Source of the DNA: a virus
Taxonomy: Duplodnaviria > Caudoviricetes
Direction: 5' to 3' (one strand)
DNA length: 26,382 nucleotides
IMG/VR virus record: IMGVR_UViG_3300043580_000045
Location: 1 to 26,382 of that record
Positions 2,790-24,912 of the stretch are shown here, piece by piece (position 1 is the first letter of the stretch; each line of letters opens with the position of its first letter). Below the pieces are notes generated by a model that saw only the letters and a program-made list of their open reading frames with translations, did no database searches and was not told the DNA's origin. The translations under genes and the position numbers were made by a program.

Positions 2790-3983
2790 ATGGCTTGGGT
2801 ACGACAACTCCCGCCGCGCAAGAGCGACGGCGTGCGCCTCTGGGCGGCAACCGTCACCACCCCGGTCGGCCGGATCACCGAGTCCGACAAACTGGAATCC
2901 GCGATCCGCGCATGGGCGCAAGAGCAAGAGGTAGACATACGGCGCGGCACGTGGATCGATCCGCGCGGGGGCGACATCACGGTGGGCGCCTGGCACACGC
3001 GGTGCGAGCGGTCGCGCCACCTGGAGCGCGCGAGCCGCAAGCGCGACGAGTCACATTGGCGGGTCCACGTCGCGCCGCGCTGGGAGTCGGTCAAGCTCGG
3101 CGGGATCCTCAAAACCGACGTGTCGAAATGGGTGGTCGCCATGGGGGAGGCGAACGTTGGCGCGGCCACGGTGGAGGGCGCGCTCGGCGTGCTCCGGTCG
3201 CTGCTGGAGCAAGCGGTAGATGATCGACTGATCCAGGCCAATCCCGCCCGGCGCGTGGGCGCACCGCCGCGGGACGCTCACGTTGACCGTGTACTCGACG
3301 CGGACGAGGAGCGGCAACTCATCGCCCGACTCGCCGAGCGCTTCCCTGACCGCGACGACGCGGCGTTGTTTGTGGAGCTGCTACTCGACACTGGCGTCCG
3401 CTGGGAGGAGGCCGCGGCCATCCCGCCCGAGCTCGTCGACGCGAAACGCCACCGGGTCCACATCGCGTGGGTAATGGAGCGCGACGGCACCGCGCGCCCG
3501 TACGCCAAGACCCACGCCGGAAACCGGACCGTGGCGTACAGCGAAGCGCTGGCCGCCCGGATGCGCGCGGCGAAACTGGCCGCCCCGGTCTGCCCCGGCG
3601 TCTTCCCGGCGCGTCGCGAGACCACGCCCGACCGACTGATCTTCACGGCGCCCGAAGGCGGCCCGATGCGCTACAACAACTGGCGGCGTCGGGTGTGGCT
3701 GCCCGGACTGACGATCGAGGTTCCGATCCCGACCCAGCGCCGGCCAGGGCAGCGCGGCCCGAGCAAGAAAGTCACGTCGAAGTACCTGGATGATCCACAG
3801 CCGACCGCGCACGACATGCGACACACGTACGGGTCACGCCTGGCCGATGAGAACGTACCGGTGCACGAGATCGCGGCCCTTATGGGGCACGCCAGCCTGC
3901 GCTCTGTTCAGCGCTACCTGCACGCGACCGAGGAGCGTTTCAAGCGGGCGCGCGACGCCCTGAAGCGGGCGCGCGAGGCATGA
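2790..3983 (+). CDS. int: Tyrosine integrase, 397 aa
   Basis: Catalytic set visible: R (TGVRWEEA), K (AKT), HxxR (HDMRH), H (LMGH), Y (QRYLH); adjacent to attP. Confidence 0.95.
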   Translation: MAWVRQLPPRKSDGVRLWAATVTTPVGRITESDKLESAIRAWAQEQEVDIRRGTWIDPRGGDITVGAWHTRCERSRHLERASRKRDESHWRVHVAPRWESVKLGGILKTDVSKWVVAMGEANVGAATVEGALGVLRSLLEQAVDDRLIQANPARRVGAPPRDAHVDRVLDADEERQLIARLAERFPDRDDAALFVELLLDTGVRWEEAAAIPPELVDAKRHRVHIAWVMERDGTARPYAKTHAGNRTVAYSEALAARMRAAKLAAPVCPGVFPARRETTPDRLIFTAPEGGPMRYNNWRRRVWLPGLTIEVPIPTQRRPGQRGPSKKVTSKYLDDPQPTAHDMRHTYGSRLADENVPVHEIAALMGHASLRSVQRYLHATEERFKRARDALKRAREA

Positions 3984-4120
3984 CGCCACGTCAAGATCAT
4001 GAGTTGGCCATGAGTTATGATCTTGAGAATCAGCGGGACAGCGTGGGACAGCGTGGGATGCGCCCCCGCAGGTCAGTGGCATGATCGCCGAGTTTTCGCA
4101 GGTCGGAACTACCACGGGCT

Positions 4121-4222: not shown

Positions 4223-4256
4223 CGATGTTCACGGAGATCATGAGTTGCCCATGAGT

Positions 4257-4745
4257 TCAGGGCTTGATACCAAGATCGCGGAATCGGTCGAGCACCCACC
4301 TCATGGAGGCTTGCAGTTCGTTGGCGGCATCCGCCCGTGCGCGGTCAACCGCGTCGTGCAGGCTCGCGATTTGAAGGTCACGATCACGGTCGGATGCCTC
4401 AACGAGGCGCATGAGCTCGGCCACCCCCGCCGTCCTGGCAATCGAGGGGATCTCGCCGGTCACCTCGGCCAACTGGTCCGTGTGCGTCGTCTGGCCAATG
4501 TGGAGCGCGTCCAACCGTTGAGTCAGCTCGGCCTGACCCGCGAGCATGGCAATGCTGCACTTCCACAGCGCGGCAAGGATGAGCAGGAGTAGGAGAGTGA
4601 AAAAGATCGTGCTCCGGAGTGAGTTGGATAACCAGCTCAACTCCGGCCCTAGCAGGACAATGCCCGCCAACACTGCCCATGCCAACGCACCGAAAGCCAG
4701 TATCCGATTCGAGTAACGAGATAGACGTGACCTAATGTCGATCAT
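4257..4745 (-). CDS. Two-TM membrane protein with helical C-terminal domain, 162 aa (accessory)
   Basis: Two hydrophobic stretches (ILAFGALAWAVLAGIVLLG; IFFTLLLLLILAALW); GGGAGG upstream; visibly less GC-biased 5' half. Confidence 0.65.
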   Translation of the reverse strand: MIDIRSRLSRYSNRILAFGALAWAVLAGIVLLGPELSWLSNSLRSTIFFTLLLLLILAALWKCSIAMLAGQAELTQRLDALHIGQTTHTDQLAEVTGEIPSIARTAGVAELMRLVEASDRDRDLQIASLHDAVDRARADAANELQASMRWVLDRFRDLGIKP

Positions 4746-9415: not shown

Positions 9416-12211
9416 TCACAGCGCGATCACGGATGGTCGGAAGAGCGCGACGCGCGCCCCGGTCAGGTGCGTCTTGACGACGCCGTTGACGGACCGCGTC
9501 ACGGTCATGGTCTGACTCAGCGTCGTTCCGGTGATCGCGGTAACCGTCATCCGCTCACCGCCGATGAGGATGTCGAACGGGAACATCGATGCATACGTGG
9601 CGCTGTCGATGAACCGCACCGTGGTCGAGACGATGTCGACCCCAGTCTCGGTGGTGTCGAGCGCCTCCGATGTTGTGGTCGCGCCGAATGCGGGTGAGAT
9701 GCGATGCGACTCCAGCTCGAAAACGTCGTACGGCAGCGCCGGTGTCGCGTTGACCCCGATGCTCCAGCGGTGCGACTCCAGAACCTCCGTGAACCCTTGC
9801 GCTATCTGTTCGACCGAGTCATAGCCGGCCCAGACCGGCGGCGGACTCGCGATGCTGGCCCGGTCGCCCACGTCGAGACTCGCGACCAGTCCGACAAGCG
9901 CAGACTTACCGGCGCCGGTCATCGCAGTGAGGTCGAAGTTGATGACGGGGTAACGCGCCTCATCGTGCGTGCCCACGTGACGCAGCCACGACGCCGCCGG
10001 CACACACTGATCGTCGGCATACAGGATCAGGGTCGGGTCTCGCGGGTACCGCCCCACCCCGTTGACGGGATCATCGCTCGGCTCCGAGACGTTGAGCTGC
10101 CCGGTGGTCTGGACCGATCGGCCGCTGGAGCCGAGGTACCGGGTCACCGAAACGTCATTGGCGAGATGGTCCGTGTCCTCGATCGGCTGGAGTGGTGGAG
10201 CAACCTCACCGCTCGCCCCGTACGTCAGCGACACCGCCGCGGTTTGGTTGTAGAGACTGGCGCGCGTGCGGTAGGCGAAACCGAGGAACGTACGCGGCTC
10301 ATAGAGAATCCCCATATCCACGTCCGCCGCGTCCTGCAAGAGGTCAGTCAGGATGGCCGGCCGCTGGACGCCCACAAGCGCCGTGTCGTCGATGTTGCCG
10401 AGGACCGTTAAGGTGATGCCCTCCTCCTCCAGTAGCCGCTCAATGCGTCGCCCGGCGGTGTCGCCCACGTGGGCGTACATGGCCGTGGTCCGGTCGGAGT
10501 AGATGTCAGCCGAGCTCGCCACGATGAGCACGTGACCGAGACCGATGGGGCCGAGCGACGGCGCCTCGACACTGTCCGCCGCGATGGTCACAGTGCGGAT
10601 CGCAGGCAAGGTAGCGGCGACGGACACGGGACCGTCCGCGATCGCGTAATCCACGTACAACGTCATGCTGACATTGCCGCCGCTCTGCGCGCACTTCAGG
10701 ACCACGTGATGCCACAGACCGTCATTGAGGTTACCCTCGCCGAGACGGACGGAGTTGGTCCCGACCGAGTCCACAGTGTCCACGCCGAGCGACACACCGT
10801 CACCCGTGTACGAGATATTCCACTCCGTGAGCGTGGTACTCGCCGGACTGCTAAGCCGGATCAATGACCCGCCGCTCGCCGCCGGGTCGATCTTGACAAC
10901 GAAACTGACCTGCCACACGGTGGGACTGGCGGCCATTGTGGACATTGCCGTGAGGTAGCCCGCATCGTCGAGCAGACTGCCCGGTAGCGGGTTGCTCCCG
11001 GTCGGCCCGACCGTTGTCGCGAAATTGACCTCTCCGACAACGGTCAGCGGCGCCCCGCCGGCCAGCCCGGACGCGGCCTGATCGCTGCCGAGGATCCCCT
11101 CCTCCATTGGCCAGTAGTCCACGGGCGTGACACCCGCGAGCGGCAGCGCCAGTGTGGTGTAACGGACCAGCGCCGAGAGAGCGCGCGACGTTTGCCCCGG
11201 CGCGCCCAGTCTGCGCAGGATGCCCCACGCGGAGATCGACGTCCATGCGTCGCGCTCATCGGTGGTCCATGCCTGTGGCCAGGCTTCGACTTCGCCCGTA
11301 AACCTGATCGCAGGGTCAATGGTGAGGCGCTGGTAGTAGACAAAGGGAAGCGTGTTCGTGTTGCCGCTGGCGCGCCCCGACCGGCAACCGATGCTGCCCG
11401 CGGCGGTGAACTCAGTATTGGTCACCGACACGTGCCATGTGGACGGCTCGACGGTGCCGTACTCCCACACCTTCATCCTGATCAGCGTCCCGAGACACTG
11501 GGCTTTCAATGTCAAGTACTGTCCGCTGAACGTGACGCCGGTGACCGTGGCCGAGCCGAGCGACCCGGTACCCCCGACCGCGTGCAGGCTCGCCGTGATC
11601 GTCTGATCCGAGTTGAACTCGACACGGGGATGGTAGTAGTGATTGACGTCCTGAAGACGCAGCATCAATCCCCCCTCCATGTCGTTGCCCAACACGTCGG
11701 AGCCCTCGATCGGATCGAACATTCTCAGCCGCACGGTAGCCGTGACGTCGGCGCGGCTGAAGCCGGGCAAGTAGCTCATCCGGTACGCGCTCGTGGAGAA
11801 CACTCCGTGTAGCGCAGTGCCCATTTCGTCGATGCGGTAGTCGGTGGCTAGCACCGAGCCCCCCGCGCCGGTAGATGACCACGGCAGCGCGCCGTACTCG
11901 CACGTGCCCCAACCCTCGGTCACGGGGCGGTTAAACGTGTCGGCCACGACGTCATAGCCCGCGACGGTCACTCGCGCCGGAGTGTTGCGGCCGATCAGTC
12001 CATAAAGGGGACTCATCGGGTTGCGCGGTGAGTACGTGCCGTCCCGATTGTTGATGGTCGCAGCGAGCCGCGTCGGCGGTATCCGCTGAACCTCGTCAGG
12101 CCGGCCGCGCGGCGAGATCGTGATGGGGTCGCGGGTGTAGACGTCATCGGTGGCCGTGATGTCGTGCCAGGCGCCGGAGTAGTAGATCTCAACCGCGACG
12201 GGAGTCTTCAT
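9416..12211 (-). CDS. Large tail-tip/baseplate hub protein with LamG/ConA-like inserts, 931 aa
   Basis: Directly after the tape measure (ATGA); YWPMEE...DGLWHHV...LYVD LamG pattern; hub-like RFTGEV, RIERLL and NDVSVTR segments. Confidence 0.8.
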   Translation of the reverse strand: MKTPVAVEIYYSGAWHDITATDDVYTRDPITISPRGRPDEVQRIPPTRLAATINNRDGTYSPRNPMSPLYGLIGRNTPARVTVAGYDVVADTFNRPVTEGWGTCEYGALPWSSTGAGGSVLATDYRIDEMGTALHGVFSTSAYRMSYLPGFSRADVTATVRLRMFDPIEGSDVLGNDMEGGLMLRLQDVNHYYHPRVEFNSDQTITASLHAVGGTGSLGSATVTGVTFSGQYLTLKAQCLGTLIRMKVWEYGTVEPSTWHVSVTNTEFTAAGSIGCRSGRASGNTNTLPFVYYQRLTIDPAIRFTGEVEAWPQAWTTDERDAWTSISAWGILRRLGAPGQTSRALSALVRYTTLALPLAGVTPVDYWPMEEGILGSDQAASGLAGGAPLTVVGEVNFATTVGPTGSNPLPGSLLDDAGYLTAMSTMAASPTVWQVSFVVKIDPAASGGSLIRLSSPASTTLTEWNISYTGDGVSLGVDTVDSVGTNSVRLGEGNLNDGLWHHVVLKCAQSGGNVSMTLYVDYAIADGPVSVAATLPAIRTVTIAADSVEAPSLGPIGLGHVLIVASSADIYSDRTTAMYAHVGDTAGRRIERLLEEEGITLTVLGNIDDTALVGVQRPAILTDLLQDAADVDMGILYEPRTFLGFAYRTRASLYNQTAAVSLTYGASGEVAPPLQPIEDTDHLANDVSVTRYLGSSGRSVQTTGQLNVSEPSDDPVNGVGRYPRDPTLILYADDQCVPAASWLRHVGTHDEARYPVINFDLTAMTGAGKSALVGLVASLDVGDRASIASPPPVWAGYDSVEQIAQGFTEVLESHRWSIGVNATPALPYDVFELESHRISPAFGATTTSEALDTTETGVDIVSTTVRFIDSATYASMFPFDILIGGERMTVTAITGTTLSQTMTVTRSVNGVVKTHLTGARVALFRPSVIAL

Positions 12212-13701
12212 CGGCCCAGCACCACCTGAACATTGCCGCCGCGGTCGCCGATGGCGCGCGCCAGCAGCTCAATCAACAGCTCGTCGATACGGCTACCACT
12301 CGACCGGAGCTCGATCACGGTTCGGTCACTCGACGCGCCGGGCGGCGTGACCCGCTCGCCCGCTTGCAGGATCGCCACCATCTCGCTACCCGGCGCGCCG
12401 GGCACCATGCCGCCAGAGTGGAATTTCGGCAGTCCGTGACGATCGTCCGCCGATGACCCCCCGCCCGTGTTGGTCTTGGTGAAACCCGTATCCGGTAGCT
12501 TGCCCGTGAGTCGGGCGAGCCACTTGCCGAGCTCTTCCGCCCGGTTGATCGCCCACTCAAGACTGTCGATGACTCCGGCGATGATCCCCACCTGAAACTT
12601 GACGATCCGGAGACCAACGTCTTCGAGCATGAATTTCAGCGCCGGCCCAACGATTTTCGTGATGTCGGTGATCGCGCCCGCGAGCGTCCGCCACGATTCC
12701 GCGTTGCCGCCCAAGCTGTCCTGGATACTGTCGAGGCTGGTCTTTACTCCGGCCAACACGTTGTCTTTCAGGTCGATCAGCGCGGCGGACATGTCGCCTA
12801 GTTCGTTGTCCACAAACGACTGAACCTTGGGCGCCAACTCGTCGAACTTGGTCACGGCGCGGTCCGCGAACGTGCCTACGGCCTCTGTCGCTGCCCCGAA
12901 CGCAGGGGTGAGCAGAACGGCCAGCTTTTCCTTGATCGTGTCGATGGAGCTGCCGAGCGCGCCCTGTGCCTCCGCGGCAGCCTTGCCGCCATTCGCCCAC
13001 GCAGTCTGCGCGTCCGCTGATTTCTCGAAGATCAACTGTTGGGTGGCGAGCGCGATCGCTTGTTGTTGCGCGACGCCGGTCAGTTTCTCCTGCCCCTTGG
13101 CCAACAGTCGCGCCTTGACGTCCGCGTCCGAGATGCTGATACCGAGCCCTTTGAGCTCGTCCCGCTCGCCGAGCATCGCCTTAGTCAGGATGTTGGACAC
13201 GTCCGTGACTGACTTGGTGCCGCCCGACCACTTGGACAATGCGCCTGCCAGGTCGAGTACCTTCGTGCTCATCGTCGCGGCTTGCTTGGCCGTGAAACCC
13301 ATCGGGATCAAGAGGTCCGCGAAGTTGGTGGCCATCGCTACGACGTTGCGGGAGCTTGTGCCGAACGCCTTACGGTTGACCTCGGCCCACTTTTGGATGG
13401 CCGGTAGCTGGTCCTTGAACACGGCGCCGGACTTGCGGTCAAGGTCCTGGACTTGCCGCGAGAGGTCGTACAGCTCTTTGCCCACAACGCCGATGGCCGC
13501 GGCGGCCGTCGCGCCAACGGCGAGCACCTTGGTCAGCCCGCCAGCGAACGCGCTGGACCCGTCGCCACCGCGCTTGAATGAGTCGTTGGCGCGATCGACG
13601 TCCTTGGTCATCTTGCGGGACGAGTCACCCACGCGATCCATTGACCGGAGAAGGTCTTTCTCATCGCCCGCAAACGTGAGTGTGACTTGATTCTTGGCCA
13701 T
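12208..13701 (-). CDS. Tape measure protein, short (497 aa)
   Basis: Ala/Gly/Lys-rich helical sequence; C-terminal LPKFHSGGMVPG...AILQAGERV motif; position in the tail operon. Confidence 0.88.
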   Translation of the reverse strand: MAKNQVTLTFAGDEKDLLRSMDRVGDSSRKMTKDVDRANDSFKRGGDGSSAFAGGLTKVLAVGATAAAAIGVVGKELYDLSRQVQDLDRKSGAVFKDQLPAIQKWAEVNRKAFGTSSRNVVAMATNFADLLIPMGFTAKQAATMSTKVLDLAGALSKWSGGTKSVTDVSNILTKAMLGERDELKGLGISISDADVKARLLAKGQEKLTGVAQQQAIALATQQLIFEKSADAQTAWANGGKAAAEAQGALGSSIDTIKEKLAVLLTPAFGAATEAVGTFADRAVTKFDELAPKVQSFVDNELGDMSAALIDLKDNVLAGVKTSLDSIQDSLGGNAESWRTLAGAITDITKIVGPALKFMLEDVGLRIVKFQVGIIAGVIDSLEWAINRAEELGKWLARLTGKLPDTGFTKTNTGGGSSADDRHGLPKFHSGGMVPGAPGSEMVAILQAGERVTPPGASSDRTVIELRSSGSRIDELLIELLARAIGDRGGNVQVVLGR

Positions 13702-16504: not shown

Positions 16505-16810
16505 TTACTCGCCCAGCTTCAGCGCGTTGCGCGTGATGTTGCTGTCGGCCAGCCGCGCAATGCGCTCTTGCTCGATGGCGTCCAGCCGCGCGCCCTCGCT
16601 CAGGCGGAAGCGCGCCCGGTTGTCGTCCGGTTCCGCGCTGGTGACCGCGGCGCGCAACGCGGCGTTCTCCGCGCGGAGTTCCGCGTTCTCGGCGATCAGC
16701 TCGGCGTGAGCGTCGTCCTCCGCGGCGATGGCCGCGATTTCATCGTCGGTCAGCTCGGGCGCGTCCGGCGCGTCCGGCGCATCCGGCGCGGGCTTGTCGG
16801 TCTTGGCCAT
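16505..16810 (-). CDS. Acidic coiled-coil head-region protein, 101 aa
   Basis: GGAAGGGG RBS; (PDA)x3 encoded by a 9-bp tandem repeat at 16761-16790; LIAENAELRAENAALRA heptads. Confidence 0.65.
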   Translation of the reverse strand: MAKTDKPAPDAPDAPDAPELTDDEIAAIAAEDDAHAELIAENAELRAENAALRAAVTSAEPDDNRARFRLSEGARLDAIEQERIARLADSNITRNALKLGE

Positions 16811-16856
16811 GATGGCGATTCCCCTTCCGTGGGTACCGGTCTCGTTGGTTGGTGCG

Positions 16857-17219
16857 CTACCGGACGAGGGTCGCGCCGACTGAGTACGTGATCGAGTTGC
16901 CGTTGCCGTGCGTGCACGTGATACGCACCTGGTCGCCGAGCGGCGCACTCGCGGAGAGGTTTGCCGCGACCGTTACGCCGAGCGCCACCACGTACGTGTT
17001 GGTCGTGACCGTGGCCACCGCGGCGGACGTCAAGAGGTTGACCCACTTGCCCGAGACGCTGTCGAGCGTGTCAATCGTCGTGATCACAGACGGTGTGGAT
17101 GTAACCGCGGTCGCATCGAGTACGACGCGGATGCCCCGGCATCCGCGCGGAATGGCGACCTGCACGGCGGTAGGGGTGGCGGTGCGAGCCGCGCTCGCGT
17201 AAATGGTCTTGGTGCTCAT
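16857..17219 (-). CDS. Putative capsid decoration/accessory virion protein, 120 aa
   Basis: AAGGGA RBS; Thr/Val/Ala-rich all-beta pattern; immediately after the capsid gene. Confidence 0.6.
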   Translation of the reverse strand: MSTKTIYASAARTATPTAVQVAIPRGCRGIRVVLDATAVTSTPSVITTIDTLDSVSGKWVNLLTSAAVATVTTNTYVVALGVTVAANLSASAPLGDQVRITCTHGNGNSITYSVGATLVR

Positions 17220-17284
17220 CGTGTGATCCCTTTCGGTGCTCGTCGGTCTACTTCGGACCGGTAGGCCTTGCGATTGCTTGGGTG

Positions 17285-17323
17285 GGCCGTCCGGCGCCCC
17301 GGGGGAGTGAGCGCCGGACGGCC
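17285..17323 (-). terminator. Strong hairpin just after the capsid stop (terminator or mRNA stabiliser)
   Basis: GGCCGTCCGGCGC / GCGCCGGACGGCC 13-bp stem. Confidence 0.6.
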
Positions 17324-17330
17324 GGTACGG

Positions 17331-20300
17331 CTACTGCGGGTCGTAGATGACCTCACGGATACCGGTGTCGTCCGTGCTGGCCGTGGCCTTGTATCCCCAG
17401 ATGGCCACATCGACGTACGCCACGCGGTATTCGAACTGGAGCCGCTGTGGCGCGGTCGCCCACCCGTGCACGTTGGCCCGGTCGAAGAGGTAGGACGACG
17501 CGGCCACCGTGCCGGACGCGGCGAGCGCCCACGCCGGACGGCCACGCAGGCCCGCAATGTTCAGGTCCGCGAACAGTTCGGACACAGTGCCGTTGGCGTT
17601 GACCGCCCCGAGCATCGGAAGCAGCTTGCGCCCATCGCCGTCAACCGCGGCGGCCAGCGCCTTGTAAAGATCGACCTGAAGAAATAGATCGCGCATGCTC
17701 ATGCCGCCGCGCACGAACTGGAGCGCCGCGATGGCAGCTTCGAGCTCGCCCGTGAGTTGGTCGTCAACCGCCGCTGTGGTAAGCGTGATGCCGGTCGGGG
17801 TGAGTCCGTCCAACAGCGTCACGGCCGATGCTTCCAGCGCCTCGAACCATGACTTCTGCATCTGGCGCCAGATGATGCCGGACAGTTGCGGGTTGCCGCC
17901 CTGGTCCCACGCCTCGCGGGTGATCTCCACCTTGCCGCTGACCGCGCTCGGCGTGATGGTCTGCGACGTCGCGACGAACGTGCCCGGGGTCGGCTCGACG
18001 CCCTGCACGTGCGCGGCCACGAGACCCGTTGCGCTGGAGAACTTCGGCAGCACGAACGGAGTCATGTCCGCCAATGTGCCTTTGTTGATCGCGTCCCAAA
18101 TCGGGTACGCGAAATCCTTCTGGTCCACGTACATGTCCGGGCGCTGGCGGTTTGGGTTGAGCGGAGCGGCGTCCGTCGTGTCCACATCGAACTGTGCGCG
18201 GGCCGGACCGGCGACAAACTGGTCGCTCATCGCTTGAAGGAACATGCTTGCGCGGGTCATTGCTTCGCCGTCGCCCTGCGACCCGGCAACGAGATCCCGC
18301 GAAAAGTCGTAGGTCTCGCCCTTGGTCAAGTTACCCTCGCGGTCGAACCGGTATGGCAACGGCTCAGTCACGCTGGTGGACGTGGTCGGGCGTGGACCGG
18401 TCGCGCCGAGCCGGCGCGTCGGGTCCACAACCTCGGGACGCTCCGGCGCGGCCGGCGCGGGGGTCAGGTGCGGCACGCCGAGCAGCACGCCCAGACCGCC
18501 ACCCGCGATGATCGCGTCAAGTTGCTCACGCGAGAGGGTCAGACCGCCCGCGGGGGTTGCCGGCGCGGCTGGCGCTTGCGGCGTCACGAGCGCCTGAAGC
18601 GCCCCGGGGTGGGCGAGTAGCGCGCTGATCTGCTCCGCGTTCAGGGCGAGCCCTGCGGTCGCCTGAATCTGGTTCGCGGGTGGGTTGGGTGCGGCACAGG
18701 CCACGCCTGCGGCGTGAGTCTGCCCGCACTGCTGGCATGGGTCCATGTGCGTCCCTTCGGGGTTGGTGCGCGACGCGGCCACCTTGGTCACGCGGGCATC
18801 GTCAAAAAGCGGCATCGCGGTGAGCGATGTCTCGCGGAGATCGGCGCGCTGTACGAGCATCACGCCGTTGTCGTCCATCGCCGTGTCTTGCGACATGTCG
18901 AAATCGACGCCTACCGACAGTCCATCGAGAACACCCTCCGCCGCGAGCGAGAGCGCCTCATCGCCAGCGGTGCCCTTGGCCACCTTGAACGACGTCATCA
19001 GGCCGTTGGGCGTGTCCTTCAGCGCGACCGCGTACCCGATCGCCTGGCCCGAGTCGTGGTCGCGCAGGAGCTTGACCCGCGAGACCGCCGAGCCGTTCCA
19101 TTTGATCGAGCCCCGCAGAAACGCGAACTTGAGCCCGTACTTGCGACCGACCACGCCGTACGGCAACGCAAGCCCCGTGATGGTCCTGCGGGTAGTGTCC
19201 ACAGTGAACTGTGCTGATACGTGCTCGGCGTCCGCGGTCCACGTCGAGCCCTCGCCCGCGCTGAACCCGTACCCGGCCAGCGCGCTCGCGTCGCTCGGAA
19301 TCACAACGTCCTCCGGTTGCGGTAGTGGGGCTGGCGCCGGCTTTGGCTTGGGCGCGCCGGGCGGCATGTTCTCCTCCGCGCGCACCTCCTCCGGGCTCAT
19401 CACGCCCTTGTCGATGGCGATGCCGTACACCGCCCAACGCTCGGTCGGGTTGGCGCGCAGGTAATCGTCAAGATCAAAAATGACGCGATGGTTGCGCCGG
19501 GTCACGTCGCCCATCGAGAGCCGCTGCGTGATCGCGAGCATGTACGGCGACAGAACGTCGTTGATGCGGTCACGCCGCCGGTCAATCGCGTTCGTGTACG
19601 TGCGGGATGTGGTGCTGACCCCCAGGTCCTCGGGATCGATCCCGAGCGCGTTCGCGATATCGAGCGATGCCTGTTTCTGGAGCTCGACAAGCTGGAGCTC
19701 GGCCGGACTCGGCGTGTCGACCGAGTTGTATTTCATCGCCCGCGGCACCCAGGCGGTTGAGCGCTTTTTGCGTGCCGCTTTCCATCGGGCGAGGATGTCC
19801 TTAACCTCGTCATCGTCCACCTCGTCCGCGCCATCCGAGGGGGTGAAGTAGTCGAGCGGTCGCGGGTCATCCGCGTACATCGACGCGGCAGAGTCCAGCA
19901 GGATCGCGCGCCTGATCGCCTTCGCGCCGGCCGAGAGGACCGGGGGATTCGGCGAGTCGAAGCGGATGACGTTGCTCGCGCTGACCTTCTGACCGTTGAC
20001 CCACACCACGGACTCGCCGCGGGGGTCCACACCGGACGGTAGCGGCGCCGTGCCGGTACCCGGCGGATTGACCGAGACCATGCCGACGTCGAGATGTTGG
20101 CACTTGGTCGGGAAGCCGGCCCCGTCGCGCTCCACGATGCGCCACCACGCGATCGACTCGAAAAGTAGATCTTCGAGGGTCTGCGCGAGCGTTACCACGT
20201 TGGCCACGTCGCGATCGAGTTGCACCAGCAACGGGTTAGTGATCGGGCGGTTGTTCGCGTCGTACTGGCACAGCGGGAGCGTCGAGATTGAACAGATCAT

Positions 20301-20498
20301 GTTCCGGCCGCGTTGCACGGCCGGGACGGTCAGCGCGGCGGAACGGCTCACGCGGCCCCCGGACACGCGGCCGGTCATGTCCAGAATGACCTGATCGATG
20401 GGACGCGGCGCGGGCTCGCTGAAGGTGTGCTCAGCGCCCGAGAGCGCCACCGCGACACGCGCGCCGAGCCGACGCCACCATCCCATGCCCGAGATCAT
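17331..20498 (-). CDS. Portal - prohead protease - major capsid fusion protein, 1055 aa
   Basis: aa ~50-380 portal (ALTVPAV.RG, IANALGI.P..LG, FDLDDYLR, MSPEEVRAEEN); aa ~432-577 HK97-type protease (RTITGLALPYG, LLRDHD, GLSVG, ETSLTAMP.F..ARV); aa ~585-1055 scaffold plus HK97-fold capsid. No stop between domains. Confidence 0.88.
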   Translation of the reverse strand: MISGMGWWRRLGARVAVALSGAEHTFSEPAPRPIDQVILDMTGRVSGGRVSRSAALTVPAVQRGRNMICSISTLPLCQYDANNRPITNPLLVQLDRDVANVVTLAQTLEDLLFESIAWWRIVERDGAGFPTKCQHLDVGMVSVNPPGTGTAPLPSGVDPRGESVVWVNGQKVSASNVIRFDSPNPPVLSAGAKAIRRAILLDSAASMYADDPRPLDYFTPSDGADEVDDDEVKDILARWKAARKKRSTAWVPRAMKYNSVDTPSPAELQLVELQKQASLDIANALGIDPEDLGVSTTSRTYTNAIDRRRDRINDVLSPYMLAITQRLSMGDVTRRNHRVIFDLDDYLRANPTERWAVYGIAIDKGVMSPEEVRAEENMPPGAPKPKPAPAPLPQPEDVVIPSDASALAGYGFSAGEGSTWTADAEHVSAQFTVDTTRRTITGLALPYGVVGRKYGLKFAFLRGSIKWNGSAVSRVKLLRDHDSGQAIGYAVALKDTPNGLMTSFKVAKGTAGDEALSLAAEGVLDGLSVGVDFDMSQDTAMDDNGVMLVQRADLRETSLTAMPLFDDARVTKVAASRTNPEGTHMDPCQQCGQTHAAGVACAAPNPPANQIQATAGLALNAEQISALLAHPGALQALVTPQAPAAPATPAGGLTLSREQLDAIIAGGGLGVLLGVPHLTPAPAAPERPEVVDPTRRLGATGPRPTTSTSVTEPLPYRFDREGNLTKGETYDFSRDLVAGSQGDGEAMTRASMFLQAMSDQFVAGPARAQFDVDTTDAAPLNPNRQRPDMYVDQKDFAYPIWDAINKGTLADMTPFVLPKFSSATGLVAAHVQGVEPTPGTFVATSQTITPSAVSGKVEITREAWDQGGNPQLSGIIWRQMQKSWFEALEASAVTLLDGLTPTGITLTTAAVDDQLTGELEAAIAALQFVRGGMSMRDLFLQVDLYKALAAAVDGDGRKLLPMLGAVNANGTVSELFADLNIAGLRGRPAWALAASGTVAASSYLFDRANVHGWATAPQRLQFEYRVAYVDVAIWGYKATASTDDTGIREVIYDPQ

Positions 20499-20506
20499 TG
20501 CACATA

Positions 20507-20550
20507 CTGTGCACGCACAGCCATAGCTGACCGCTGTGCGCGTGTCAACA
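20507..20550 (-). promoter_or_regulatory. Promoter/operator upstream of the head polyprotein gene
   Basis: TTGACA(20548-20543)-17 nt-TATGGC(20525-20520), overlapped by CTGTGC-type motifs like those in the immunity region. Confidence 0.55.
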
Positions 20551-20551
20551 G

Positions 20552-22159
20552 TTACTCGGGAGCGATCACCAACCGCGGCTTGCCGATCGGCGCGGGCAGG
20601 GTCCGGGCGAGATGCACCGCGCCGGCCGTCGCGTAGGCGGCGTCACAGTGCCCACCACCGCGCCGGCTGAACACCCACGTATCGCCGGGCCGGCGGAGCT
20701 TTTCCGCCCCGATGACGTGTGCGTTGATCAAGGGGTCATCCGAATGGACGATGCGGCCGGCGGTAACTTGCTCGGCCAGGCCCATGCACACCGCGGCGAG
20801 CTCGCCCCGAATCTCCTCCACTGTGACCGATGCAGGGAGCGTCGACCTGCGTCCCTCGCGCGGCTTGAGATCCGCCCCGAGGACCGCGGCCGGCCCGACC
20901 GGCAACCACCCGAGCGCTTGCGGCCTGATCCTGGCCACGAGCGCCGGTAGGTCACGGCGCATGGCGTCGACACACCCAACACCTTCCCACGCCTTGATCG
21001 CCTCGACACGGACACGATCGTCAGGCAGTACCGCGGCGGCGATCAGGGATGCGTGCAGCTCGTCGGGCGCGATGTCGACCACGAGCGCCACCCGCGAGCG
21101 GACCGCGGCCAGCGTGCCCGGAACGTGACCGCGGCCCCAGGCGCCGGAGTCCACGGCCGGGTCGAGCATCGGCACTGTGACGCACATCGATTCAGTCTTG
21201 AAGCTGGCCAGCGCCTCACCGCCGAGCCGGACTGCGCGGTTGGCTTTCGCGATCAGCACGGCGCCATCCTTGCGCCGGTTCAAGTTCGGGTTGGCCTGCG
21301 CGAGTGCCTCGATGTCGCGCGGGTCCGCGCCAGAGTCCGCGGACCACTCGAAGAGCCCGAGCCGCGGGTCATGACCCGCGGCGATGAGCTCGGCCATGCC
21401 CACCTCACCGCGCTCATTGATGTACTCGATCATGGCGAGCGCTTCCGCCCTGTGGTCGTTGAGGACCACCGAGCGCGCGTCGCCAGCGTTGCTCAGTGCC
21501 CAAATCTGCGCGTCCCACACCGCGGATGTCGCCTCTTCCGCCGCGCCCCAGGCTGAGTAGTCGTGGTGCTGGCGGAGCTCGTCGCAGACGAGACGGTTGA
21601 TCGTGAGCGACCGCCCACCCTCCTCGTTGCTGGCCGCGATCTTGTACCGAGAGTCCTCGATGGTGCGGCTCTCTTGCTCGCCGTTCGTGTCCCGTGTCCA
21701 GCGGCGCGGCCCGCGCAATGCGTCGAAGTCGGGTGTGGACTCCGCGAGCTTGGTCGACTTTTTCCACGACTCTTTGGCGTACTCCAGTTTGGTTGATGTG
21801 CCCAGGATCAGCGGGAAAGAATCTATAAACTGCCAATAGAGGGTGAGAATAACCAACAATTCTGTTTTGCCGTTCTGTCGCGCGACGAGCACCAACACGA
21901 CCAGGAAGCGCGGGCGCCCATCCGGCAAGAGCTCGCCTGCATGGATGGCGAGCCACTCCTGCCATGGGTCCATCGGGTGGCGCAGCGTGTGCCGCGCGAA
22001 ACGCGCCTGCCTGAAACCGACGCTGGTCTCCGGGGTCAGCTCACGTAGCGGCGGCGTCCAGAGCCTAGGTTCCGTGCTGCCGAGTACGCTCGTCGCGCTC
22101 GCGACGGAGCCGCTCGAACTCACTCTCGACTCGCGCTGGTCCAGCAGTGGCGCTGCCAT
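20552..22159 (-). CDS. terL: Terminase large subunit, 535 aa
   Basis: DPWQ adenine-binding motif, Walker A VARQNGKT, Walker B LVCDE, SNAG coupling motif, ANPNL, nuclease VVDI and CDAAYA. Confidence 0.93.
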   Translation of the reverse strand: MAAPLLDQRESRVSSSGSVASATSVLGSTEPRLWTPPLRELTPETSVGFRQARFARHTLRHPMDPWQEWLAIHAGELLPDGRPRFLVVLVLVARQNGKTELLVILTLYWQFIDSFPLILGTSTKLEYAKESWKKSTKLAESTPDFDALRGPRRWTRDTNGEQESRTIEDSRYKIAASNEEGGRSLTINRLVCDELRQHHDYSAWGAAEEATSAVWDAQIWALSNAGDARSVVLNDHRAEALAMIEYINERGEVGMAELIAAGHDPRLGLFEWSADSGADPRDIEALAQANPNLNRRKDGAVLIAKANRAVRLGGEALASFKTESMCVTVPMLDPAVDSGAWGRGHVPGTLAAVRSRVALVVDIAPDELHASLIAAAVLPDDRVRVEAIKAWEGVGCVDAMRRDLPALVARIRPQALGWLPVGPAAVLGADLKPREGRRSTLPASVTVEEIRGELAAVCMGLAEQVTAGRIVHSDDPLINAHVIGAEKLRRPGDTWVFSRRGGGHCDAAYATAGAVHLARTLPAPIGKPRLVIAPE

Positions 22160-22493
22160 TCACCACACCCCCCTTCGCACCGCGGCCGGCCAGCGTCAGC
22201 CCGAGCGACGTGAGCGCGGCGAGCAACTTTGGCCCGAGGTCGCTCGCCACCGAGTGGGCCGATAGCGCGTCTGTGATCTTGCCCCAGTGTTTGACGTAGT
22301 CCACGCCCATCACGGGATCGAGTACCGCGAGCGTTTCGAGTGCACGCGTTACCGCCTCGATCGACTCGCGGAACTTGGCGGCCGGCGCGGCATCGTCGAT
22401 CAGCGCGGCGTAGCGCCGGCACAGCGCCGCGGCCCCCTCGTCCGCCTTGCCGAGCTCGACCGCGGCCAGCGAGGCGCCAACCGCGCGCGTCAT
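22065..22493 (-). CDS. terS: Terminase small subunit, 142 aa
   Basis: D.GAAALCRRYAALID...LGPKLLAALTSLGLT...R...FERLR pattern of actinophage TerS; directly upstream of TerL. Confidence 0.78.
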   Translation of the reverse strand: MTRAVGASLAAVELGKADEGAAALCRRYAALIDDAAPAAKFRESIEAVTRALETLAVLDPVMGVDYVKHWGKITDALSAHSVASDLGPKLLAALTSLGLTLAGRGAKGGVVNGSATAGPARVESEFERLRRERDERTRQHGT

Positions 22494-22638
22494 CGGCCCG
22501 CCCCGTGCCGGCGCGGCCGGCGCCGGCAACGCGACCACGATCGGGTCGAGCGCCGGAGCGTCCGCGCACTCGGCGTGCACGGCACCCGAGATCCGACTGC
22601 CTTTGACGATCGGCCGCCGGTCGCCCTGGTCACGTCGC

Positions 22639-22719
22639 TCACCAGTTCACCGCGCTGTAGATCCCATCGACGATCTCCTGTATCCGATCGCTCAACCAGT
22701 CCAACAGTCGCGTCAGCAT
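22639..22719 (-). CDS. Possible 26-aa amphipathic peptide MLTRLLDWLSDRIQEIVDGIYSAVNW
   Basis: G-rich RBS-like sequence upstream; first ORF after the candidate cos; GTGA overlap with a following weak 50-codon ORF. Confidence 0.35.
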   Translation of the reverse strand: MLTRLLDWLSDRIQEIVDGIYSAVNW

Positions 22720-22754
22720 GACCCACCCCCCTGACCTGCGCTTATGGAGGCCCG

Positions 22755-22810
22755 GGGAGAGGGACAGGACACGTAGGCAGGGTGTCCGGGATGTCCGTTT
22801 AGGAAAAAAT
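22755..22810. other. Candidate cos (terminase cleavage) site
   Basis: Non-coding, between HNH and terS; dyad GGACA-GGACAC-GTAGGCAGG-GTGTCC-GGGA-TGTCC flanked by an A6 tract and GGGGAGAGGG. Confidence 0.5.
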
Positions 22811-22815
22811 GACCA

Positions 22816-22971
22816 TTAATTTGGCGAGATTTGTCCTGAAATGGAGCGCAACCACTCCGCGATTTCGTGCAGACCCACGGACCCGTCCGCGATGAGTACA
22901 ACCGCGGCGATCGCCAGCCCCACCAGTGCCGGCATGCGCCAGCGTCGCCAACCCCTCGATGTGTCATCCAT
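22816..22971 (-). CDS. Small single-TM protein, 51 aa (not in ORF track)
   Basis: MDDTSRGWRRWRMPALVGLAIAAVVLIADG...; starts 4 nt after the HNH stop. Confidence 0.5.
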   Translation of the reverse strand: MDDTSRGWRRWRMPALVGLAIAAVVLIADGSVGLHEIAEWLRSISGQISPN

Positions 22972-22975
22972 GCCC

Positions 22976-23236
22976 CTACCATCTCGTCACCGGCCGTGGT
23001 TGTGGGTCAGGCTTTCGGTTAGGATCGCCGATCTTCAGATTGCACGGCGTGCACGCCGCCACCATGTGGGCGGGATCGTCCCCCGTGATTGCCCTGCCCT
23101 TGGTGTGATGCGCGCAGTCGGCCACACCGACACAGACGCTTAGCTTGATCTTGCATTGGTATCCGTCCCTCGCCAACACCTGCGCGCGCACCTTGCGCCA
23201 TGCGCGCGTGCTGCCCTTCGCCCATGATCCGCTCAC
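22976..23236 (-). CDS. HNH endonuclease (HK97 gp74-like packaging cofactor), 86 aa
   Basis: WRKVRAQVLARDGYQC...C....HH...AACTPCNLKIG; position just before cos/terS; GTGA overlap with the helicase stop. Confidence 0.85.
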   Translation of the reverse strand: MSGSWAKGSTRAWRKVRAQVLARDGYQCKIKLSVCVGVADCAHHTKGRAITGDDPAHMVAACTPCNLKIGDPNRKPDPQPRPVTRW

Positions 23237-24912
23237 CAATAGCCCCCCTGACTAACCGAGGACACGCACGGCAGCGCATCTAGTCGCATCGATGCGAGGC
23301 GATGCGAGATCGCATCGGACAGTTCACCGCGAGTACCGGAAACCGGGATACGCATCTGCGCAGCGATGTTGAGCTGTCCCTGCGATGGCTCAAGCGAGCG
23401 CCACCGCGCACCCTTGCGCGTGAGCGCCTTGCCCTCAGCCGCGTACTGCTCACCCCAGCTCATCGCCATGGACAGATCCAGTCCCTCGCGCAACCACTCG
23501 CCGCCCTGGCCCTTGGCCGGACACCGAGCGACCGAGTAAGCGCCGGGGTCGCTCGCCGGCGCAAGGAAGATCAACTTATCGCCCGCGCTCAGGAACCACA
23601 CGCCGCGCTCCGTGCGCAACCATGCCTGACGACTCAGTCCAAAGAGATCCACGATCTCGTGAGCGAGCGGCCCGTCAACGCCAGCCTCACGCGGGAACGC
23701 ACCGCCGGTGCCCTCGCTCGTCTCGACCATCTCCAGTAGATCGAGCTCGTCATATTCGGCAAGATCGTCCGGGAGTTTCTCGACGCGGTCCGCGCCCACC
23801 AGGTCCACCACCGAAGCCAACCGATGGCGCCCGGTAACGCCCACCACGTCAAGGATGAGCGCGTCCGCCTTGCCGGGGTAGGGGCGCAGCCCACGACCGG
23901 CCATCTGCACGTACAGCGGCGTGGAGCTGGTCGGGCGCGCGATGACCACCGCGGACGCCCAAGGCGCGTCATAGCCTTCGGTCAAGATCATGCAGTTGTG
24001 TACGACCTGGATCGAGCCGTGCGCGAACTCGCGCAGGATCCGGCGCCGGGCGTCGAGCGGCATCGCGCCGTCAATCGCCGAGCTCGTGATCCCCTCGCCG
24101 TTGAACGCCTCGGCACCTTCGTACGCCATCGCCACGTCCGGCCAGAACGCGATGCCGCGCCGCTGCGCCGCGTGCTCGACGTACGCCCTCGCGACCGCCT
24201 TCGGTGCCAGCGCGGCGTGCATGGCCTCACTCAGCGCGCCATCCCGCCAGTCACCGCGCGAGCGCGCCACCTGCGACAGATCCAGCCCGTCAACCCGCAC
24301 CCGGATTCCCCGCGCGTTGACGAGGTGCCCCTCACGGATCATGTCCACAATGTCCCGCTGATACGCGACGTCCTCCCACACCTGCCCGAGCGCGACCCGA
24401 TCCGAGCGCCCGAGCGTCGCGGTCACGCCGAGCGCGTACGCGCCCACGGCCAAGTCCGCCCCGAAACACCCGAGGTCGCGCAGGACCGTCATGTACGTGT
24501 CGGCCACCGCGTGGTGGCACTCATCCACGATGACCAGGCGCACCCCCGCTGCGACCAGCTCAGCCCGCCGCGCGGCACCGCCCGGACCGCCGAGCGACTG
24601 CACGGACGCCACGATGACGTCCACCCCGGTCACCTCACGCCGCGCGGCCTTGACCACGCCAACCCTCAACCCGGGAGCGACTTGCGCGAGCTTGTCAACA
24701 GCCTGCGACAGCAGCTCGTCGCGATGGACCAGGATCAGCGTCACCACGCCGAGGGAATGCATGGTCGCCACCAGGTGGGCGAAGACCACCGTCTTGCCGG
24801 CGCCGGTCGGGAGCACCACCGCGAGCCGCCGGACGCCCTCCGACCATCCCCGCCGTACCGCCTCGATCGCGGCTGACTGGTAGTCGCGCAGCGCGAGCAT
24901 TCCATTACTCAT
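23233..24912 (-). CDS. SF2 DExH helicase (ResIII/Irc3-like), 559 aa
   Basis: LRDYQ, LPTGAGKT, DECHH, TAT, LTEGYD and QMAGRGLR motifs. Confidence 0.92.
   Translation of the reverse strand: MSNGMLALRDYQSAAIEAVRRGWSEGVRRLAVVLPTGAGKTVVFAHLVATMHSLGVVTLILVHRDELLSQAVDKLAQVAPGLRVGVVKAARREVTGVDVIVASVQSLGGPGGAARRAELVAAGVRLVIVDECHHAVADTYMTVLRDLGCFGADLAVGAYALGVTATLGRSDRVALGQVWEDVAYQRDIVDMIREGHLVNARGIRVRVDGLDLSQVARSRGDWRDGALSEAMHAALAPKAVARAYVEHAAQRRGIAFWPDVAMAYEGAEAFNGEGITSSAIDGAMPLDARRRILREFAHGSIQVVHNCMILTEGYDAPWASAVVIARPTSSTPLYVQMAGRGLRPYPGKADALILDVVGVTGRHRLASVVDLVGADRVEKLPDDLAEYDELDLLEMVETSEGTGGAFPREAGVDGPLAHEIVDLFGLSRQAWLRTERGVWFLSAGDKLIFLAPASDPGAYSVARCPAKGQGGEWLREGLDLSMAMSWGEQYAAEGKALTRKGARWRSLEPSQGQLNIAAQMRIPVSGTRGELSDAISHRLASMRLDALPCVSSVSQGGYW

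What the first reader, a model, noticed from the sequence alone, without database searches (positions are those of the whole stretch)
17331..20498. Portal, maturation protease and major capsid protein encoded as one polyprotein
Seen: one stop-free 1055-codon frame with portal motifs, a Pro-rich linker (PPGAPKPKPAPAPLPQP), an HK97-type protease with His (LRDHD) and Ser (GLSVG) motifs, then a scaffold-like region and a capsid domain. No other portal or capsid gene is in the window. Established: HK97-type heads need 12 portal subunits against hundreds of capsid subunits; protease-capsid and portal-MuF fusions are known. I do not know a characterised triple fusion, but I cannot check this. Inference: the fusion may tether the protease and a few capsid subunits to the portal ring to nucleate the shell, then be cut apart by its own protease.
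Basis: partly seen in the sequence, partly recalled or inferred. Interest (0 to 1): 0.88.

Follow-up and report, generated by a model that had tools for sequence, protein, structure and literature searches.

The report
Portal-protease-capsid gene with nested starts
A small temperate soil phage, like more than a hundred relatives, encodes its DNA-entry portal, head protease, scaffold and shell protein in one unbroken reading frame, and conserved start signals predict that it likely makes a scarce full-length chain from a dedicated promoter and an abundant shell-only chain from a start inside the gene.

Summary
Confirmed. Window 17331-20498 (-) is one stop-free frame holding an HK97-type portal, an S78 protease, a scaffold and an HK97-fold capsid protein; it is the window's only portal or capsid gene. 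It is no artefact: 173 of 238 fetched loci (127 clusters at 85% identity, actinomycete prophages and soil phages) keep the fusion. It is probably not a plain polyprotein. A Shine-Dalgarno site plus ATG/GTG/TTG sits just after the protease in 126 of 127 clusters (window: ATG 18746), predicting a separate 49.5 kDa scaffold-capsid chain that solves the 12-versus-hundreds problem. The gene's 5' start lacks a ribosome-binding site; a TAnnnT box lies 5-8 nt upstream in 92 of 122, pointing to a leaderless mRNA (window start probably 20486). A third start before the protease is weakly supported. Protease His/Ser are conserved and a recurring x-x-F|D/S/A motif marks candidate cuts. Expression and cleavage are inferred only. 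Ten literature searches found no triple fusion; protease-scaffold-capsid fusions and nested protease/scaffold starts are published.

The parts
20494..20502 (-). Predicted extended -10 promoter box (TGc AATGAT) 7 nt before ATG 20486; would give a leaderless mRNA for the full-length chain
   Evidence: Window sequence; no SD before 20498 or 20486 (+0.6 kcal/mol). Family: TAnnnT 5-8 nt before the N-terminal ATG/GTG in 92 of 122; 91 of 116 against 14.1 expected from shuffles. The window's hexamer has A, not T, at position 1.
17331..20486 (-). Fused head gene; long product 1051 aa, 112 kDa (from codon 5; the ORF finder starts at 20498)
   Evidence: codon-5 column is Met in 96 of 120 homologues
20420..20486 (-). 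N-terminal helix (residues 5-19) followed by candidate cut site HTF|S (F26)
   Evidence: Helix in the model; motif enriched in N-terminal segments; cleavage inferred
19365..20357 (-). HK97-type portal domain, residues about 48-378
   Evidence: Pfam PF04860, phrog_12, PDB 3kdr E 2.5e-13, Foldseek 3kdr, 8cez, 8fql
19209..19364 (-). Linker 1: Pro-rich, low-confidence in the model, with candidate cut site GYGF|S (F412)
   Evidence: pLDDT below 50 at 392-428; column 412 is F in 104 and L in 14 of 127
19302..19314 (-). Possible third start (GGAGG + GTG, V399) for a protease-scaffold-capsid chain of about 69 kDa; weak support
   Evidence: SD -9.5 kcal/mol in the window; 46 of 127 clusters against 14-26 expected
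18768..19208 (-). S78 (HK97-type) prohead protease, residues 431-577; catalytic H481 (19056-19058) and S528 (18915-18917)
   Evidence: Pfam PF04586; H in 123 of 127, S in 127 of 127
18744..18758 (-). Nested in-frame start: GAAGGGA Shine-Dalgarno + ATG (M585) for the scaffold-capsid chain (471 aa, 49.5 kDa)
   Evidence: 126 of 127 clusters; controls
18189..18746 (-). Scaffold (delta-like) region, residues 585-770: CxxC-H-C motif, two LxL(N/S)xEQ helical repeats, conserved EPLPYRFD-helix block; ends at candidate cut AQF|D
   Evidence: F at the capsid junction in 123 of 126
17331..18188 (-). HK97-fold major capsid protein, residues 771-1055 (285 aa, 30.6 kDa), and the shared stop codon
   Evidence: phrog_2263; Foldseek to HK97 capsids 1ohg, 2ft1, 8fqk at E about 1e-8; mass
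20552..22159 (-). Terminase large subunit, directly upstream (context)
   Evidence: phrog_9 E 3.8e-55

Best explanation
One reading frame with one stop carries portal, protease, scaffold and capsid domains, and it likely yields two main chains: a scarce 112 kDa portal-protease-scaffold-capsid chain from a predicted leaderless start at 20486, and an abundant 49.5 kDa scaffold-capsid chain from the internal ribosome-binding site and ATG at 18746. Twelve long chains would form the portal ring, each bringing one protease and one scaffold-capsid unit into the forming prohead. The short chains would build the rest of the shell (235 subunits if T=4, 415 if T=7; T not determined). The His/Ser protease would then cut at x-x-F|D/S/A sites (F26, F412, F770, perhaps L619 and L655), freeing a roughly 42 kDa portal and a 30.6 kDa capsid protein. 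Shown: the frame, the domains, their conservation, and the conservation of the start signals. Inferred: promoter use, internal initiation, product ratio, tethering and cleavage.
For: Fusion: 173 of 238 loci; 70 of 73 informative loci when seeded from capsid motifs. Nested start: SD <= -5 kcal/mol plus ATG/GTG/TTG within 20 codons after the protease in 126 of 127 clusters; expected 23.9 from other windows, 48.3 from codon-order shuffles and 96.7 from synonymous resampling; at <= -7, 80 against 16.7 and 45.4. The site codon is ATG 103, GTG 23, TTG 1; where Val replaces Met it is GTG in 22 of 25 against 47% elsewhere. The SD core falls in all three frames (84/38/5) over 23 dipeptides. In L056 and L088 the same SD+ATG lies out of frame with the protease. 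16 of 18 split relatives and Arthrobacter phages Elkhorn (M160) and Atraxa (M165) have it too. 5' start: no SD (median +0.3 at codon 5); TAnnnT 5-8 nt upstream in 91 of 116 against 14.1 expected, 0 of 127 at the nested start. Capsid codons have higher GC3 than portal codons in 106 of 127. Catalytic H 123 of 127, S 127 of 127. Precedent for a nested start in a protease gene: HFTV1 gp17/gp17.5, lambda, HSV-1 (bioRxiv 10.64898/2026.09.13.751334, passages).
Against: No RNA, ribosome or protein data. The window's own nested SD is modest (-5.3 kcal/mol; family median -8.3), though equal to that of the next gene. An SD-like score can be imposed by protein sequence: the M935 column scores <= -5 in 55 of 57, and M562 in 36 of 75. 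Synonymous resampling alone gives 97 of the 126 hits. The window's -10 box is AATGAT, not TAnnnT, and the sigma-70 scan found no promoter. The cut motif also beats shuffles in a capsid-interior control (90 of 127). L056 and L088 may be assembly errors or defective genomes. The GC3 difference may partly reflect amino-acid content.
Confidence: 0.75

Rival explanations
1. True polyprotein: only the 112 kDa chain is made, the protease cuts it before or during assembly, and the large excess of portal is degraded or left unassembled.
For: One frame, conserved catalytic residues, candidate cut motifs at every junction.
Against: It does not explain the conserved SD with ATG/GTG/TTG exchange after the protease, or the same site in split relatives. 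It would make some 20 to 35 times more portal than a head needs (235 or 415 against 12; established stoichiometry).
Confidence: 0.08
2. Three nested genes sharing one stop: portal, protease and capsid starts are all used as in the split ancestors; the fusion is only a tolerated loss of the portal stop codon, and the tail on the portal is trimmed without helping assembly.
For: SD + start in linker 1 in 46 of 127 against 14-26 expected, including V399 here; Val after such sites is GTG in 29 of 38 against 126 of 301. Fused and split forms intermix on trees (5-7 changes among 68 sequences). The leaderless box (16 of 18) and nested start (16 of 18) are also in split relatives, so neither evolved for the fusion.
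Against: 81 of 127 clusters lack a strong linker-1 start, so there the protease can come only from the long chain. The fusion dominates among close relatives (70 of 73). Compatible with the best explanation except on whether tethering matters and whether a third chain exists.
Confidence: 0.35
3. A programmed frameshift or early termination in a linker makes free portal or free portal-protease.
For: Frameshifting is common in phage tail genes (recalled).
Against: XXXYYYZ slippery heptamers occur in only 3 of 127 linker-1 regions and 2 of 127 post-protease regions. It would lower, not raise, capsid output.
Confidence: 0.03
4. Assembly or sequencing artefact joining separate genes.
For: None found.
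Against: 127 clusters below 85% identity share the frame, including isolate genomes; contigs span both junctions with 0 differences.
Confidence: 0.01

Closest known systems
Protease-scaffold-capsid fusion genes of small-genome actinophages (Microbacterium cluster EE, e.g. BurtonThePup gene 5; Arthrobacter AN, AX, FE; Gordonia CW, DM; Rhodococcus RRH1) - PMC7302621 and PMC5513430, passages read
   Same: Same order protease-scaffold-capsid in one gene right behind an HK97-type portal; about 31% identity over portal and protease; an SD + ATG at the same place after the protease in Elkhorn and Atraxa.
   Different: Their portal is a separate gene whose stop overlaps the protease start. The capsid part finds no tblastn match among 50,697 phage records. 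The passages I read do not mention a nested start.
Nested protease/scaffold genes: lambda C/Nu3, HSV-1 UL26/UL26.5, HFTV1 gp17/gp17.5 (bioRxiv 10.64898/2026.09.13.751334, passages; Shaw and Murialdo 1980 seen only as a reference title; the names UL26/UL26.5 are recalled)
   Same: An in-frame start behind the protease domain gives an abundant C-terminal product sharing the stop codon.
   Different: There the nested product is the scaffold alone and neither portal nor capsid is in the frame; here the nested product is scaffold plus capsid and the long product begins with the portal.
HK97 head module (portal gp3, protease gp4, delta-capsid gp5; gene numbers recalled) - PMC10275583, abstract and passages
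   Same: Same three folds; scaffold fused to the capsid N-terminus; mature capsid about 280 residues. In HK97, scaffold towers bind 10 of 12 portal subunits and the portal is thought to nucleate assembly.
   Different: HK97 uses three separate genes and a non-covalent portal-scaffold contact; here the link is covalent in the long chain.
Portal-MuF and portal-effector fusions (PMC7302621, PMC5513430, PMC5512222; passages)
   Same: The portal C-terminus tolerates large appended domains; close relatives L002, L025 and L122 carry an ADP-ribosyltransferase domain there.
   Different: The cargo here is the protease, scaffold and capsid protein themselves.

Membership tests
HK97-type head module | HK97-family portal domain | tested here: met
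   Pfam PF04860 98.4 bits over cut-off 39.1; Foldseek 3kdr, 8cez. Below the NCBIfam TIGR01537 equivalog cut-off (51 against 112).
HK97-type head module | S78 prohead protease with catalytic His and Ser | tested here: met
   PF04586 34.7 bits over cut-off 21; H481 in 123 of 127, S528 in 127 of 127. TIGR01543 46.2 is under its cut-off of 59.
HK97-type head module | HK97-fold capsid protein with an N-terminal scaffold domain | tested here: met
   phrog_2263; Foldseek to 1ohg, 2ft1, 8fqk; partly helical low-complexity region 585-770. Scaffold function is inferred from position.
HK97-type head module | Portal, protease and capsid as separate genes | tested here: not met
   One frame.
Small-actinophage protease-scaffold-capsid fusion (EE/AN/AX/FE/CW/DM/RRH1 type) | Protease, scaffold and capsid in one gene | tested here: met
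   definition from PMC7302621.
Small-actinophage protease-scaffold-capsid fusion (EE/AN/AX/FE/CW/DM/RRH1 type) | Portal encoded by its own upstream gene | tested here: not met
   No stop between portal and protease here; Elkhorn and Atraxa have one.
Nested protease/scaffold gene (lambda, HSV-1, HFTV1 type) | In-frame start signal behind the protease domain | tested here: met
   126 of 127 clusters.
Nested protease/scaffold gene (lambda, HSV-1, HFTV1 type) | Internal initiation shown by ribosome profiling or protein sequencing | not testable with these tools
   Needs infected or induced cells.
Nested protease/scaffold gene (lambda, HSV-1, HFTV1 type) | Nested product is the scaffold alone | tested here: not met
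   The frame runs on from M585 through the capsid domain to the only stop.
Classical viral polyprotein (one initiation, equimolar products) | A single translation start | tested here: inconclusive
   A conserved internal start signal argues against it, but its use is not shown.
Classical viral polyprotein (one initiation, equimolar products) | Processing by an embedded protease | not testable with these tools
   Catalytic residues are conserved and candidate sites recur; no cleavage data.

The most novel reading that the evidence does not exclude
These phages hard-wire head nucleation: twelve long chains, dosed by their own leaderless promoter, assemble into a portal ring that already carries twelve proteases and twelve scaffold-capsid subunits on flexible tethers, so every shell starts on a portal and receives a fixed dose of protease, while a strong nested start supplies the rest of the shell.
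Probability: 0.3. Interest if true: 0.82.

Novelty: new variant of a known kind. Interest (0 to 1): 0.62.

Why it matters
How one portal ring is built into each head, and how the maturation protease is delivered and counted, are open questions in tailed-phage and herpesvirus assembly (PMC10275583 states portal nucleation as a hypothesis). A natural covalent portal-protease-scaffold-capsid chain, with natural split relatives for comparison, makes both testable with one gene and a few point changes. It also matters for annotation: databases name these proteins only 'portal' or 'prohead protease', so the capsid gene of a large family of actinomycete phages and prophages is invisible. The parts of the mechanism (nested start, leaderless mRNA, self-processing) are each known, which limits the surprise.

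Tried and rejected
Artefact: rejected. Programmed frameshift: no conserved slippery site. M378 (19367, SD -9.5 in the window) as a start: Met in only 22 of 120 homologues and the SD arises from Glu-Glu codons, so not adopted. Sigma-70 consensus scan: 0 promoters in 16700-23300 (it needs a -35 box). Expression: no RNA holder listed. Cultured members: no record among 50,697 phages covers 80% of the protein and the capsid part has no match; no PDB sequence match for the capsid profile. Short 373-475 aa homologues starting at the M585-like site exist in the protein database, but their DNA context could not be fetched (one search returned only a relative), so they are not counted as stand-alone genes. 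Breaks in L044 (possible long-read error), L237 (adapter-like contig end), L187 and L058 were judged likely artefacts or decayed copies. Literature: 10 searches found no portal-protease-capsid fusion; the library lacks most subscription journals, Liu and Mushegian 2004 was not held, and no supplements were read, so an earlier mention cannot be excluded. A first tree script gave no answer and was rerun smaller. A second fold of residues 700-1055 had not finished when I stopped and a VIA search did not run. No complex prediction was attempted.
Full report
Observation. The minus-strand ORF 17331..20498 has 1055 codons and no internal stop. Pfam places a portal domain at 70-377 and an S78 prohead protease at 437-575, both over their curated cut-offs; PHROG 2263 (major head) covers 419-1050. 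The AlphaFold model from an 82-sequence alignment (mean pLDDT 75.8, pTM 0.45) shows well-predicted domains joined by low-confidence stretches at 392-428, 567-586 and 767-794. Foldseek matches it to HK97-family portals (3kdr, 8cez, 8fql) and HK97 capsids (1ohg, 2ft1, 8fqk). Domain profiles run over all six frames of the window hit only this frame. The window is a 26.4 kb virus record with terminase upstream, head-tail and tail genes downstream, and an integrase, repressor and excisionase: a small temperate phage, by its relatives one of actinomycetes.

It is not an artefact. One contig in each of two runs of one soil sample spans both junctions without a difference (this may be the source sample, so it is not independent). 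The protein search gave 1146 hits of 580-1847 aa among 8000 candidates scored; the 120 listed are 947-1096 aa, many from Micromonospora prophages, and named only 'portal' or 'prohead protease'. Of 238 loci fetched (duplicates between collections and the window itself included), 173 carry all three domains in one stop-free frame; 34 end at a contig edge, 21 are split after the portal, 7 have other breaks and 3 have no hit. The 173 form 127 clusters at 85% identity. Seeding from capsid motifs instead gave 70 fused of 73 informative loci (80 examined, 7 cut off).

The copy-number problem and the nested start. A head needs 12 portals and 235 (T=4) or 415 (T=7) capsid subunits (established), so one equimolar polyprotein fits badly. 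Eight codons after the protease the window reads GAAGGGA-cgcac-ATG (M585, 18746). I noted this before consulting the scan's earlier notes. In 126 of 127 clusters an ATG, GTG or TTG with an anti-SD pairing of -5 kcal/mol or better lies within 20 codons after the protease; other 20-codon windows predict 23.9, codon-order shuffles 48.3, and synonymous resampling with the protein fixed 96.7; at -7 the figures are 80 against 16.7 and 45.4. The codon is ATG 103, GTG 23, TTG 1 times; in members without an SD+ATG, Val there is GTG in 22 of 25 against 47% elsewhere. The SD core falls in all three frames (84/38/5) and over 23 different dipeptides, as expected of selection on the RNA. Four other conserved Met columns show SDs in 10 of 112, 10 of 127, 0 of 68 and 1 of 116; two controls go against the test's specificity: M562 (36 of 75) and M935 (55 of 57, behind an invariant Gly-Gly). 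The window's own site is modest (-5.3; family median -8.3) but equals the SD of the next gene. In L056 and L088 the same SD+ATG lies out of frame with the protease, though these may be errors or defective genomes. 16 of 18 split relatives examined keep the site, as do Arthrobacter phages Elkhorn (M160) and Atraxa (M165), so it predates or is independent of the portal fusion. Capsid codons have higher GC3 than portal codons in 106 of 127, which fits heavier translation but is confounded by composition.

The 5' start looks leaderless. Neither ATG 20498 nor ATG 20486 has an SD (+0.6), and the codon-5 column has a median of +0.3. Instead a TAnnnT hexamer lies 5-8 nt (mostly 6 or 7) before the N-terminal ATG/GTG in 92 of 122 clusters, and xAnnnT in 117; 91 of 116 against 14.1 expected from shuffled upstream DNA. 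It is found before 3 of 6399 internal ATG/GTG codons and 0 of 127 nested starts. A -10 box at this distance puts the transcript start on the start codon, the usual signature of leaderless mRNA in actinobacteria (recalled). The window has TGc-AATGAT 7 nt before 20486, and none of 13 other candidate gene starts checked has such a box (a 14th position was mis-set). The strict sigma-70 scan found nothing. 16 of 18 split relatives have the box before the portal too. Inference: the long chain comes from a dedicated leaderless transcript and initiates poorly on terminase read-through mRNA, while the nested SD works on both, which would bias output towards the scaffold-capsid chain.

A possible third start. 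Linker 1 holds an SD of -7 or better plus a start codon in 46 of 127 clusters, the window's GGAGG-GTG at V399 (19304) among them, against 8.1, 14.4 and 26.3 expected under three nulls; Val behind such sites is GTG in 29 of 38 against 126 of 301. This probably marks the old protease start kept in a subset. In the other 81 the protease would come only from the long chain, at one per portal subunit.

Processing. H481 is kept in 123 and S528 in 127 of 127. The residue just before the capsid domain is F in 123 of 126, typically A-Q-F|D, which would give a 285-residue, 30.6 kDa mature capsid protein, close to HK97's 280-residue chain in 1ohg. A similar x-(T/Q)-F|(D/S/A) word recurs after the N-terminal helix and in linker 1: a matrix from the capsid junction beats shuffles in 92 of 117 N-termini and 104 of 127 linkers, against 37 of 127 in a portal-interior control but 90 of 127 in a capsid-interior control. 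These are candidate cut sites only (window: F26, F412, F770, perhaps L619 and L655).

History. On FastTree trees of 55 fused and 13 split sequences (40 fused drawn at random plus 21 chosen, with overlap; midpoint root; several weak nodes), the split state needs 7 changes on the capsid tree and 5 on the portal tree. Split relatives have the portal stop 23-53 codons after the domain in most cases, overlapping the protease start, as in Elkhorn and Atraxa; a small frameshift there interconverts the states. The split relatives closest to this capsid (68-69% identity; L002, L025, L122) sit among fused members and carry a 570-650 aa portal extension with an ADP-ribosyltransferase domain, which suggests a secondary split. 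So the fusion is common and long-lived but not essential.

What is known. Protease-scaffold-capsid fusions are described for small actinophages (PMC7302621 and PMC5513430, passages), with portal-MuF fusions in other clusters. Nested protease/scaffold starts are shown for HFTV1 and cited for lambda and HSV-1 (bioRxiv 10.64898/2026.09.13.751334, passages; the lambda paper seen only as a reference title in PMC8508860). In HK97 the scaffold binds 10 of 12 portal subunits and portal nucleation is a hypothesis (PMC10275583, abstract and passages). bioRxiv 10.1101/2022.09.09.507160 (passages) has no occurrence of 'fusion' or 'fused'; PMC5512222 (passages) lists portal-effector fusions; PMC7689252 (passages) was irrelevant. 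Ten searches found no portal-protease-capsid fusion; subscription journals are mostly absent and no supplements were read. No cultured phage among 50,697 records covers the gene. This scan recorded such a fusion with nested starts in 9 earlier notes on other DNA, one with a ClpP-type protease; these are unchecked AI notes, not independent support. No note held all my search words, which included 'leaderless'.

Verdict. A real, widespread and apparently undescribed gene architecture, best read as nested genes sharing one stop: a scarce portal-led chain and an abundant scaffold-capsid chain, matured by the embedded protease (confidence 0.75). Whether the covalent link helps nucleate the head is open (about 0.3). 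New variant of a known kind; interest 0.62.

Noticed in passing
L025:1938-4808, L002:1875-4736, L122:749-3844: The split relatives closest to this capsid (68-69% identity) carry a 570-650 aa C-terminal extension on the portal with an ADP-ribosyltransferase domain (PF03496), followed by a separate protease-scaffold-capsid gene.
   Followed up: partly
window 18696-18737 (residues 588-601): CxxC-x3-H-x5-C motif right behind the nested start; CxxC-x2-4-H-x3-7-C/H in 53 of 127 clusters. Possibly a metal site at the scaffold N-terminus.
   Followed up: partly
L239:2856-4439 and L240:2805-4421 (Arthrobacter phages Elkhorn and Atraxa): Cultured phages annotated 'major capsid and protease fusion' have an SD + ATG just after the protease domain (M160, M165), so their capsid may also be made from an unannotated nested start. 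Testable in available phages.
   Followed up: partly
window 3994-4026 and 4235-4267: 33-nt direct repeat (85% alike, 241 nt apart) just after the integrase gene 2790..3983; possibly arm-type sites of attP.
   Followed up: no
window 12208-13701 and 9416-12211: Short tape-measure-like gene (497 aa, phrog_8462) followed by a 931 aa protein of unknown function (phrog_5313) with a stretch matching phrog_24476 'phosphodiesterase'.
   Followed up: no
L056:3400-3820 and L088:3406-3826: The scaffold-capsid SD+ATG is out of frame with the upstream protease; in L088 the protease's last 26 or so model positions are missing. Either errors or natural portal-protease / capsid splits.
   Followed up: partly
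BFVD hit A0A6J5S481: A 1201 aa 'HK97 portal' of an uncultured phage aligns over 737 columns; it may be another long portal fusion.
   Followed up: no
window 20420-20486: Family-wide N-terminal MG(W/F)W-type amphipathic-looking helix ahead of the portal, followed by the TF(S/D) motif; possibly a removable leader.
   Followed up: partly
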